Below, piece by piece: positions 3,673 to 3,839 of a DNA stretch of 10,295 bases. The translations under genes and the position numbers were made by a program. The notes beneath the pieces are model-generated. The model saw nothing but the letters and a program-made list of their open reading frames with translations, was not told the DNA's origin and did not search any database. The DNA comes from an uncultured Gammaproteobacteria bacterium (GTDB lineage Bacteria > Patescibacteriota > Patescibacteriia > UBA2591 > UBA6264): positions 1-10,295 of the forward strand of contig CAZDOL010000015.1 in assembly GCA_964507075.1 (NCBI GenBank), given 5' to 3'. Position 1 is the stretch's first letter. Every line of letters begins with the position of its first letter.

Positions 3673-3701
3673 ATTCTAACAGGTTTAATTTTTTTATCCA
3701 A
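3673..3701 (-). promoter_or_regulatory. Candidate promoter for the 3223..3666 gene, with spacing that implies a leaderless mRNA
   Basis: Read on the minus strand, there is a -35 TTGGAT (3701-3696), a 17-nt spacer, and an extended -10 TGtTAGAAT (TG at 3681-3680, hexamer 3678-3673). Only 6 nt (ATAACT) separate the -10 from the ATG at 3666, and there is no SD. Confidence 0.35.
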
Positions 3702-3839
3702 CCCCCACACTATAACAGCAATACATTTCTAATGCGCACCATCCTTTAATAGCTTAATCTATTTGTTGCAAAAAATTGACTTTATTTTAAATGAATTTAG
3801 AAATGCAAGAAAGCGTTATTGCTGTTTAGTGTGGGGGTT
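3700..3839. repeat. Long-range imperfect inverted repeat (~140 bp element) in the divergent intergenic region
   Basis: The outer arms are 3700-3723 (AACCCCCACACTATAACAGCAATA) and 3817-3839 (TATTGCTGTTTAGTGTGGGGGTT). They are complementary over 23 positions with one bulged T. The inner arms 3724-3732 (CATTTCTAA) and 3797-3805 (TTAGAAATG) match 9/9. An 11-nt asymmetric loop (3806-3816) separates the two right-hand arms, and the centre is 64 nt. A T-run (3838-3850) follows on the plus strand. Confidence 0.75.

What the first reader, a model, noticed from the sequence alone, without database searches (positions are those of the whole stretch)
3700..3839. A 140-bp long-range inverted repeat positioned exactly between two divergent promoters upstream of the RuBisCO operon
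Two 23-24 nt arms (3700-3723 and 3817-3839) are complementary at every position apart from one bulged T. A second 9/9 complementary pair (3724-3732 / 3797-3805) extends the helix to about 32 bp around a 64-nt centre. This is far beyond chance for a 200-bp spacer.

The outer ends of the arms coincide with the candidate -35 boxes of the two divergent genes (3696-3701 and 3839-3844). Each promoter is therefore preceded by the same 23-bp sequence in mirrored orientation. On the plus strand the element also ends in GGGGGTTTGTTTTTTTTT, which resembles the 3' end of a terminator or small RNA.

There are three competing readings:
1. paired binding sites for one regulator that co-controls both genes
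2. a structured small RNA or attenuator
3. a MITE-like miniature mobile element
Basis: seen in the sequence. Interest (0 to 1): 0.65.

Follow-up and report, generated by a model that had tools for sequence, protein, structure and literature searches.

The report
Relic of a GIY-YIG palindromic mobile element
The 140-bp inverted repeat is real, but it is most likely a gene-less leftover of a small mobile DNA element found across ultra-small (CPR) bacteria, whose intact ~300-330-bp relatives carry a tiny GIY-YIG nuclease gene; it is probably not a regulator site or small RNA for the RuBisCO operon.

Summary
The repeat is as described: 13/13 and 10/10 complementary arms around one bulged T, with folding z-scores of -5.5 to -6.8.

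It is not conserved. Six related Patescibacteria keep the same divergent gene pair, the T-run and both extended -10 promoters, but lack about 120 bp exactly where the repeat sits. Half of the same-species contigs carry an uncompensated SNP in the stem.

Its tips define a family. A scan for CCCCCACACTA...TAGTGTGGGGG found 52 metagenome stretches (42 distinct loci). Their stem is exactly 20 bp: 12 conserved pairs and 8 covarying pairs. Half are flanked by 3-5-bp direct repeats. The tips abut -35 hexamers far more often than chance.

Elements of 303-327 bp with the same tips encode an 85-92-aa single-domain GIY-YIG nuclease. Near-identical copies follow different tRNA genes. Two short elements keep fragments of that gene. 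One full-length type has the same bulged T as the window.

Best reading: a non-autonomous, probably decaying member of this family. It resembles the Ssn nuclease/hairpin-repeat systems but fails their published motif. The regulator and sRNA/terminator readings are poorly supported. The mobility mechanism is inferred, not shown.

The parts
3700..3723 (.). Left arm, AACCCCCACACTA-T-AACAGCAATA. The family tip CCCCCACACTA is 3702-3712. T3713 is the bulged base.
   Evidence: The tip matches the family consensus. A bulged T at the same position occurs on the arm next to the ORF start in the 303-bp GIY-YIG element L127.
3817..3839 (.). Right arm, TATTGCTGTT-TAGTGTGGGGGTT. The family tip TAGTGTGGGGG is 3827-3837. 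G3834 is polymorphic (G/T) in the population.
   Evidence: The G3834T SNP is in 5 of 9 near-identical contigs and has no compensating change at C3705.
3724..3816 (.). AT-rich core of the element. It contains a 9/9 inner pair, 3724-3732 / 3797-3805. No remnant of a GIY-YIG gene is recognisable.
   Evidence: A GIY-YIG HMM scores -0.6 bits on the six-frame translation; the shuffled maximum is 7.4. The core shows no significant similarity to other family members, z at most 2.3.
3673..3701 (-). Promoter-like site of the 147-aa gene, outside the element except for its first two bases. It has a -35-like TTGGAT (3701-3696) and an extended -10 TGTTAGAAT (3681-3673), 6 nt from the ATG at 3666.
   Evidence: The same -10 and -35 layout is present in relatives without the element.
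3838..3867 (+). Promoter-like site of the e2b2/RuBisCO operon. It has a -35-like TTTGTT, the ancestral T-run (3842-3850) and an extended -10 TGATAATAT (3859-3867), 6 nt from the ATG at 3874.
   Evidence: The T-run and GTGATAATAT are conserved in L034, L039 and L040, which lack the repeat.

Best explanation
The 140-bp inverted repeat is a gene-less (non-autonomous, MITE-like) and probably decaying copy of a family of small palindromic mobile elements found mainly in Patescibacteria (CPR).

Family members share a tip, (A)CCCCCACACTAA, at both ends. The tips pair into a 20-bp stem of 12 conserved and 8 element-specific pairs. Full-length members of 303-327 bp consist of little more than this stem around an 85-92-aa single-domain GIY-YIG nuclease gene. 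Shorter members of about 98-147 bp have lost the gene.

The window's copy sits in the only free DNA between two back-to-back leaderless-type promoters, and both promoters are left intact. It is either an insertion in this lineage or an older element deleted in the sister lineages.

Inferred mechanism, not shown here: in single-stranded or extruded DNA the two ends fold into the stem. The conserved foot of the stem is recognised by the cognate GIY-YIG nuclease, by analogy with the Ssn nucleases, which bind hairpin repeats on ssDNA and cut beside them (PMC11893778). Cleavage followed by repair or copying spreads the element, often leaving a 4-5-bp TNNA-like duplication.

In this genome region no nuclease gene is present, and one tip is mutating. 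The copy is therefore most likely an immobile relic with little or no regulatory role.
For: Shown here:
1. The repeat is real and far beyond chance.
2. Six relatives have 77-92% identity in the neighbouring 147-aa protein and keep the e2b2<->147-aa gene pair and both extended -10 boxes. Their spacer cores are only 21-49 nt where they align. The alignment gap coincides with the element.
3. A scan for CCCCCACACTA N100-130 TAGTGTGGGGG returned 52 metagenome stretches, which are 42 distinct loci and 39-40 distinct elements of 124-147 bp.
4. Pairing outside the searched bases holds at 80-98% for stem positions 12-20, using all four pair types at positions 13-20. It falls to the null level (42% and 32%) at positions 21-22.
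5. 17 of 42 loci have a direct repeat of at least 4 bp at the junctions, against 4.7% in the null. The repeats include TATGA at stop/start overlaps, where both genes stay intact.
6. Nested and tandem copies occur (L098, L060, L109).
7. L060 98-424 has the same tips and encodes a GIY-YIG protein (Pfam PF01541, E 1.3e-10).
8. Loci reached through the protein, not through the DNA pattern, carry the same tips. P0121 327-bp copies differ by 0-4 bases and lie directly 3' of tRNA-Leu, two tRNA-Val and tRNA-Pro genes, or in tandem. P0122 lies after tRNA-Ala. P0126 303-bp copies are identical in 3 flank combinations. The more distant P0219 has a diverged tip, ACCCCGCCCTCTA.
9. Two short elements contain GIY-YIG gene fragments: L051 at 44.9 bits and L092 at 29.5 bits, against a shuffled maximum of 7.4.
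10. The window's arms match the family tip (11/11 plus A12 on the right arm). They share the bulged T after tip position 11 with the P0126-type element.
11. Element tips abut a -35 hexamer at offset 0 in 13 of 82 outward flanks, against about 0.3 per other offset.
Against: - No target-site duplication is recognisable at the window copy: CCAA on the left, TTTG on the right.
- The window core has no detectable GIY-YIG remnant and no similarity to other members. Membership therefore rests on the tips, stem length, bulge, size and presence/absence pattern.
- No second copy and no GIY-YIG gene were found in the roughly 20 kb of this species available, or in about 315 kb of related loci.
- Tip positions 1-11 of the 52 metagenome hits were fixed by the search pattern.
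- L040 carries AAGCCCCCA at the same spot, so an older insertion followed by deletion cannot be separated from a recent insertion.
- That the GIY-YIG protein is the mobilising enzyme, and that it acts on a folded single strand, is inferred from gene-element association and from the Ssn literature. It was not tested.
- About half of the family copies lack flanking direct repeats. The P0126-type copies share flanks instead, so the transposition chemistry is unclear.
Confidence: 0.78

Rival explanations
1. Non-autonomous derivative (MITE) of a classical DDE-transposase insertion sequence, for example an IS1380-, IS5- or IS701-like element with 4-5-bp duplications. Under this reading the GIY-YIG gene is only passenger cargo.
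For: The element has terminal inverted repeats, is small and has no ORF. Half of the family copies have 3-5-bp direct repeats. My recollection of ISfinder is that the IS1380 family has CC ends and 4-5-bp duplications; this was not tested.
Against: No transposase gene recurs near the 42 loci. Every longer element found with these tips holds only a GIY-YIG ORF within 303-327 bp. The inner 8 bp of the arms differ in almost every element yet stay complementary. That fits recognition of a folded stem better than recognition by one shared transposase.
Confidence: 0.1
2. A structured small RNA, leader/attenuator or terminator-like hairpin that acts on the e2b2/RuBisCO operon or on the 147-aa gene.
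For: The hairpin is very stable on both strands. A T-run follows it on the + strand. Stem covariation is seen across the family.
Against: There is no Rfam family above chance; the only matches are weak ones to plant miRNA hairpins. The element is absent from all six relatives with the same operon. The T-run and both promoters pre-date the element and lie outside it. No promoter-like site points into it. A population SNP breaks a G-C pair without compensation. Family copies occur in every kind of context and in either orientation. Covariation is expected equally for a DNA stem.
Confidence: 0.06
3. Paired operator sites for one regulator, such as the 147-aa protein or the YerC/TrpR-like protein, that co-controls both divergent promoters, possibly by DNA looping.
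For: Identical 23-bp sequences lie mirrored directly upstream of both -35 boxes, about 11 helical turns apart.
Against: The arm sequence is the family-wide tip, found in unrelated contexts and organisms. Sister species keep the 147-aa gene, the operon and the promoters without it. The 147-aa protein is conserved in more than 3000 Patescibacteria proteins whatever its neighbours. It has no recognisable DNA-binding fold. A SNP sits in one arm.
Confidence: 0.04
4. Invertible promoter segment (inverton): the arms are recombinase sites and the 92-bp core flips to switch expression between the two genes.
For: Inverted repeats of about 23 bp flank a short intergenic segment between two genes, which is the layout of known phase-variable promoters (my knowledge).
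Against: All 10 independent assemblies of this species show the same orientation. No promoter-like site lies inside the core. Both genes have their own conserved promoters outside the arms. No recombinase gene is in the window.
Confidence: 0.02

Closest known systems
Ssn nucleases with NTS/SRM hairpin repeats (GIY-YIG cd10448; Chenal et al., Nat Commun 2025, PMC11893778)
   Same: Both involve a tiny single-domain GIY-YIG nuclease gene (85-94 aa) bracketed by inverted, hairpin-forming repeats in an IS-like layout. Gene-less copies of the repeat are scattered elsewhere. The paper shows that the nuclease binds its repeat on ssDNA and cuts beside it.
   Different: The published SRM search motif and the NTS core have no match in the window or around the CPR GIY-YIG genes. 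In this family each end is not a local hairpin; the two ends pair with each other over 100-300 nt. The tips are CCCCCACACTAA. Copies show TNNA-like flanking duplications and sit next to tRNA 3' ends and -35 boxes, neither of which is mentioned in the paper's main text. The hosts are Patescibacteria, also not mentioned there. Whether the CPR proteins fall in cd10448 was not tested; the best PDB match is UPF0213 protein 1ZG2.
Bacterial MITEs with long hairpins (Correia/CREE, ERIC, RUP, Rickettsia palindromic elements)
   Same: They are 100-150-bp elements with terminal inverted repeats and no ORF. They lie in intergenic DNA, often next to promoters, and are sometimes flanked by short duplications (my knowledge; background in PMC3184786, which was listed but not read).
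   Different: Those families are multi-copy, near-identical repeats within one genome, and are tied to DDE transposases or have no known enzyme. Here only one copy was seen in the DNA available, the cores differ between copies, and the longer relatives encode a GIY-YIG nuclease.
REPINs with RAYT, and IS200/IS605 'peel and paste' elements
   Same: Recognition of a folded single-stranded hairpin by a small nuclease, and non-autonomous hairpin doublets that spread in intergenic DNA (as discussed in PMC11893778).
   Different: The enzyme there is an HUH/Y1 transposase and no target duplication is made. REP units are local palindromes with GTAG/CGTC tags. None of this was seen here.
Integron attC sites
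   Same: An imperfect long-range inverted repeat of 57-141 bp with an extrahelical base, recognised as folded ssDNA (my knowledge).
   Different: The left flank ATCCAAC fits RYYYAAC, but the right end GTTTGTT does not fit GTTRRRY. There is no integrase and no cassette array in the window.

Membership tests
CCCCCACACTAA-tipped palindromic elements (family defined here) | Both ends carry the tip CCCCCACACTA(A) in inverted orientation. | tested here: met
   3702-3712 and 3827-3837 match exactly. Position 12 is A on the right arm; the left arm has an extra T.
CCCCCACACTAA-tipped palindromic elements (family defined here) | A stem of about 20 bp (12 conserved and 8 element-specific pairs) and a total length of 124-147 bp for gene-less copies. 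| tested here: met
   The window has 21 pairs counted from C3702, plus one bulge, and is 136 bp tip to tip. In the family, pairing stops at position 20.
CCCCCACACTAA-tipped palindromic elements (family defined here) | Flanking 3-5-bp direct repeat (TNNA-like). | tested here: not met
   The flanks are CCAA and TTTG, with no repeat. Half of the family copies also lack one.
CCCCCACACTAA-tipped palindromic elements (family defined here) | Presence/absence polymorphism between related genomes. | tested here: met
   The element is absent from L034, L039, L040/L045, L012, L049 and L011, which have conserved flanks.
CCCCCACACTAA-tipped palindromic elements (family defined here) | The core is derived from, or encodes, the GIY-YIG nuclease. 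| tested here: not met
   The HMM scores -0.6 bits on the window core. Only 2 of 39 short elements keep a remnant.
Ssn / SRM system (PMC11893778) | The repeat matches the published SRM degenerate motif or the NTS core. | tested here: not met
   There are 0 matches in the window and in the loci L109, L127, L119, L133 and L060.
Ssn / SRM system (PMC11893778) | A cd10448 GIY-YIG gene lies next to the repeat. | tested here: not met
   No GIY-YIG ORF is in the window or in L001-L010. Longer family members do carry one, but its CDD subfamily was not determined.
Ssn / SRM system (PMC11893778) | Site-specific cleavage of ssDNA next to the repeat. | not testable with these tools
   This needs purified protein and oligonucleotide substrates.
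Classical MITE (derived from a DDE-transposase IS) | Terminal inverted repeats, small size and no ORF. | tested here: met
Classical MITE (derived from a DDE-transposase IS) | Several copies in the same genome. | tested here: inconclusive
   Only about 20 kb of this species was available, with one copy. Exact-arm scans of genome contigs and metagenome contigs found nothing, but those collections also lack the window's own contig.
Classical MITE (derived from a DDE-transposase IS) | A parent IS with the same ends encodes a transposase. | tested here: not met
   No recurrent protein lies near the 42 loci. Longer elements encode only GIY-YIG.
Intrinsic terminator / Rfam small RNA | A match to a curated RNA family, or a short-loop GC hairpin with a U-run that is conserved in relatives. 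| tested here: not met
   The loop is about 90 nt. The T-run is ancestral.
Inverton (invertible promoter) | Both orientations occur in the population, and a promoter lies inside. | tested here: not met
   One orientation in 10 assemblies. No internal promoter-like site. Read-level data were not available.

The most novel reading that the evidence does not exclude
The window's repeat may be a fossil of a class of minimal mobile elements that has not been described as such. These are 300-330-bp units in Patescibacteria made of one single-domain GIY-YIG (Ssn-like) nuclease gene inside a 20-bp stem with a conserved 12-bp foot. On this reading they move by themselves, leave TNNA-like duplications, and preferentially land at the upstream edge of -35 hexamers and at tRNA 3' ends. 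Their gene-less derivatives would then seed hairpins between promoters in streamlined genomes. If so, they would be among the smallest autonomous mobile elements known, and a nuclease rather than a transposase would drive MITE-like spread.
Probability: 0.35. Interest if true: 0.8.

Novelty: new variant of a known kind. Interest (0 to 1): 0.6.

Why it matters
For this locus, the repeat should not be annotated as a RuBisCO-operon regulator or small RNA.

More broadly, the trail leads to a family that links MITE-like hairpins in CPR bacteria to tiny GIY-YIG nuclease genes. That extends the recently described Ssn nuclease/hairpin-repeat association to a new repeat type, a new host group and apparently recent mobility: near-identical copies lie behind different tRNA genes.

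The family has a sharply defined 20-bp stem with 8 covarying pairs, and a strong tendency to sit exactly at -35 boxes. It offers a testable model for how structure-specific nucleases spread DNA. It also offers a new set of candidate sequence- and structure-specific DNA nucleases.

Tried and rejected
- Rfam, at gathering thresholds and at permissive E-values: only tRNA-His, plus chance-level hits to plant miRNA hairpins.
- Exact-arm scans (21 nt) of genome contigs, metagenome contigs and viral contigs: 0 hits. The first two collections evidently lack the window's own contig, so the result says little about copies in the same genome.
- A 16-mer tip scan of viral contigs gave 7 single ends without partners, judged to be chance. 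The family patterns are absent from viral contigs.
- Inverton reading: only one orientation is seen in the same-species contigs.
- attC reading: the right end fails GTTRRRY.
- NTS and SRM motifs: no match.
- Search for a common neighbouring protein or transposase among the 42 loci: none.
- GIY-YIG remnant in the window core: none. Core similarity to other members: none.
- Full-text search for the tip sequence: only unrelated eukaryotic and primer hits. Searches for MITEs in CPR and for GIY-YIG with inverted repeats found only the Ssn paper as relevant.
- The 147-aa neighbour as a regulator: no Pfam, NCBIfam or PDB sequence match, and no fold match for an AlphaFold model with pLDDT 77.
- L044, a 97%-identical fragment, is a chimeric contig and was discarded.

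Full report
**Observation.** The window is a low-GC Patescibacteria contig. It is JGI 3300028169 Ga0268279_1002053, and the same species is in NCBI GCA_000405165.1. Between a 147-aa gene on the minus strand (3223-3666) and the e2b2 / cytidylyltransferase-like / RuBisCO operon (from 3874) lies the repeat as described. Positions 3700-3712 pair with 3827-3839 (13/13), and 3714-3723 pair with 3817-3826 (10/10). T3713 is the single bulge. The tip 13-mer occurs only at these two places in the window, where 0.13 matches are expected. The region folds far better than shuffles as RNA on either strand and as DNA, with z of -5.5, -6.8 and -6.1. The additional 9/9 pair (3724-3732 / 3797-3805) is real, but it lies behind an 11-nt asymmetric loop. 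Both arms end at -35-like hexamers of two divergent promoters. Their extended -10 boxes, TGTTAGAAT and TGATAATAT, lie 6 nt from the start codons.

**Not a conserved feature of the locus.** Ten contigs of the same species are 99.3-100% identical to the window. Five of the nine aligned cleanly across the spacer carry G3834T, which breaks a G-C pair in the conserved tip without compensation. The neighbouring 147-aa protein has more than 3000 close homologues in Patescibacteria, and I used it to fetch related loci. Six relatives at 92, 89, 87, 86, 84 and 77% protein identity keep the divergent e2b2<->147-aa arrangement. The three closest also keep the T-run and the GTGATAATAT and TAACAG...ATG promoter motifs. 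Between the two -35 regions these three have only 21-49 nt, and the alignment gap of about 120 nt falls exactly on the repeat. The T-run that made the right end look like a terminator is therefore ancestral promoter-proximal DNA. L039 and L012 carry a different small terminator-like hairpin at the same spot. L040 has AAGCCCCCA there, which could be a remnant, so a recent insertion cannot be told apart from an older insertion followed by loss.

**A family with the same ends.** Rfam gives nothing. Exact-arm scans found no other copy, but the collections also lack the window's own contig. A looser scan for the two 11-nt tips 100-130 nt apart returned 52 metagenome stretches. These are 42 distinct loci and 39-40 distinct elements of 124-147 bp, on contigs with 30-60% GC, many of them from groundwater ultra-small size fractions. 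These are not chance matches. Position 12 was not part of the pattern, yet it is A in 38 of 40 elements. Pairing is kept at 80-98% at positions 12-20, and positions 13-20 use all four base-pair types. Pairing then drops to the null level at positions 21-22. The family therefore has a sharply defined 20-bp stem with 12 conserved and 8 covarying pairs. The window fits, with 21 pairs plus the bulge and 136 bp from tip to tip.

**Signs of mobility.**
- 17 of 42 loci have a direct repeat of at least 4 bp at the two junctions, against 4.7% in a flank-swapping null. The repeats are mostly T..A words: TTGA, TAAA/TTTA, TATGA/TCATA and CTATA.
- In L053/L094 and L062/L064 the duplicated TATGA restores both the stop codon of the upstream gene and the start codon of the downstream gene at an ATGA overlap.
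- L098 holds one element nested inside another. L060 and L109 hold arrays.
- L051 and L071 are related strains that carry different elements at the same site.
- No protein family recurs next to the elements.

**Link to a GIY-YIG nuclease.**
- In L060 an element of 327 bp with the same tips contains an 85-aa ORF that matches the Pfam GIY-YIG domain.
- Starting from the protein, its 99%-identical form P0121 is found in 327-bp elements, CCCCCACACTAACTTTCATTTC...TGAAAGTTAGTGTGGGGG, that differ by 0-4 bases. They lie directly after tRNA-Leu(CAG), tRNA-Val(CAC), tRNA-Val(GAC) and tRNA-Pro(GGG), or in tandem separated by TCCA.
- P0122 (84% identity) lies after tRNA-Ala.
- P0126 (59%) sits in an identical 303-bp element in three flank combinations. 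P0219 (47%) is bounded by a diverged version, ACCCCGCCCTCTA / TAGAGGGCGGGGT.
- The cores of two short elements are fragments of the gene: L051 covers aa 41-83 (44.9 bits) and L092 covers the N-terminus (29.5 bits), against a shuffled maximum of 7.4. So at least some short elements are deletion derivatives.
- The P0126-type element has the arms CCCCCACACCA-T-AACGAGTA and CCCCCACACCA-AACGAGTA. This is the same bulged T at the same position as the window's CCCCCACACTA-T-AACAGCAATA and CCCCCACACTA-AACAGCAATA.
- The window's own core has no detectable gene remnant and no similarity to other members.
- No GIY-YIG gene was found in the window, in the 17.7-kb NCBI locus or in the related loci.

**The promoter coincidence.** In 13 of 82 outward flanks a hexamer matching TTGACA at 5 of 6 positions or better starts at the very first base after the tip, against about 0.3 per other offset. 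In 10 flanks a -10 box follows at 16-18 bp. TTGA is the commonest flanking repeat. An insertion into the first four bases of a -35 box, with duplication, leaves the promoter intact. Whether this reflects target choice or survival of harmless insertions in very compact genomes cannot be decided here. It explains why the window's arms touch both -35 boxes without invoking a regulator.

**Mechanism (inferred).** The closest described system is the Ssn family. Ssn proteins are single-domain GIY-YIG nucleases of about 94 aa whose genes are bracketed by hairpin-forming repeats (NTS/SRM) in an IS-like layout. They bind the repeat on ssDNA and cut next to it (PMC11893778). The 8 covarying pairs and the abrupt stem end fit recognition of a folded stem better than recognition of linear DNA by a shared transposase. 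I therefore propose that the family's stem foot is the recognition site of its GIY-YIG nuclease. I also propose that the window's copy is a gene-less relic that can no longer move; the tip SNP fits decay. Membership in Ssn/SRM as published is not met. The NTS core and the SRM degenerate motif have no match in the window or around the CPR nuclease genes. The ends pair with each other rather than forming local hairpins. The CDD subfamily was not determined, and the best PDB sequence match is the UPF0213 protein 1ZG2.

**Rivals.**
- A DDE-transposase MITE remains possible, since terminal repeats and short duplications are present. However, no such parent element was seen.
- A small RNA or attenuator, a paired operator and an inverton are each contradicted by the absence of the repeat in relatives, the ancestral T-run, the uncompensated SNP, the single orientation and the lack of an internal promoter.
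- The 147-aa neighbour shows no DNA-binding signature. Its model has a helical N-part and a small beta-barrel, and no fold match.

**Verdict.** The feature is a relic with low direct importance for RuBisCO regulation. The family it belongs to appears to be an undescribed variant of nuclease-associated palindromic elements and deserves follow-up.

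Noticed in passing
window 3223-3666 (-): The 147-aa 'hypothetical' protein is very strongly conserved in Patescibacteria: 3219 hits, the best 120 listed at 71-97% identity, with many invariant Trp, Tyr and Lys residues. 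It has no Pfam, NCBIfam or PDB match. Some lineages have an N-terminal extension of about 80 aa. The AlphaFold model (pLDDT 77) shows a helical N-part and a small SH3/Tudor-like beta-barrel, with no significant fold match.
   Followed up: partly
window 10184-10216; also L039 70-102 and 2934-2956, L040 1940-1970, L012 3810-3836: A recurring terminator-like hairpin, AAAAAGTTTGGAnnC-CGA-GnnTCCAAACTTTTT, with an A-run and a T-run on its two sides. In the window it follows tRNA-His. In relatives it sits between convergent genes and also in the same divergent spacer that holds the 140-bp repeat here. It may itself be a dispersed palindromic element.
   Followed up: partly
window 9812-9829 / 9922-9939: A second perfect long-range inverted repeat, 18/18 with 92 nt between the arms (AAAATCAAATCAAAATTT / AAATTTTGATTTGATTTT). 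It lies inside the 3' end of the HAD-hydrolase gene. My rough estimate of the chance expectation is about 1e-3 for the window. It has no similarity to the main element.
   Followed up: no
window 3859-3876 and 3664-3681: Both divergent genes have an extended -10 box (TGATAATAT, TGTTAGAAT) only 6 nt upstream of their ATG, with no Shine-Dalgarno sequence. This suggests leaderless or near-leaderless mRNAs. The layout is conserved in relatives.
   Followed up: partly
L004 (same species), region aligned to window 3850-3885: One strain variant carries a 24-nt insertion that duplicates the GTGATAATATTAAGATA promoter segment upstream of e2b2. L039 has a similar tandem duplication. The promoter region of the RuBisCO operon is therefore length-polymorphic.
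   Followed up: no
L051 3667-3812 versus L071 904-1040: Two related strains have 86-98% identical flanks and carry completely different elements at exactly the same site. The tips are the same but the arms and cores differ. One of the two holds the C-terminal half of a GIY-YIG gene.
   Followed up: partly
L109 800-2110; L060 1-1140: A Paceibacterota contig holds arrays of 98-nt gene-less elements, a 327-bp GIY-YIG element behind tRNA-Leu, fragments of tRNA acceptor ends (ACGCTTCGCT) duplicated between elements, and 89-nt tandem units that carry only a left-tip-like CCCACCACACTAAC. Many copies share about 25 nt of right flank (CGGCACAAATAGAAAATTCTAAT) behind different tRNAs. This suggests that flanking DNA is co-copied.
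   Followed up: partly
L070 4150-4450; L039 1389-1467: Another GIY-YIG gene is bracketed by a different C-run inverted repeat, CCCTGTTAAATA / TATTTAACAGGG. A 12/12 repeat of similar style, CCCCGTTAGAAAT..ATTTCTAACGGGG, spans the RuBisCO start in L039. There may be several tip 'dialects'.
   Followed up: no
window 3874-6528: The operon is e2b2 (IF-2B family), then a cytidylyltransferase-like protein of 161 aa (best NCBIfam match is the RfaE domain II adenylyltransferase, below its cutoff), then the RuBisCO large subunit. A TrpR/YerC-like gene follows. No AMP phosphorylase gene is present in the window.
   Followed up: no
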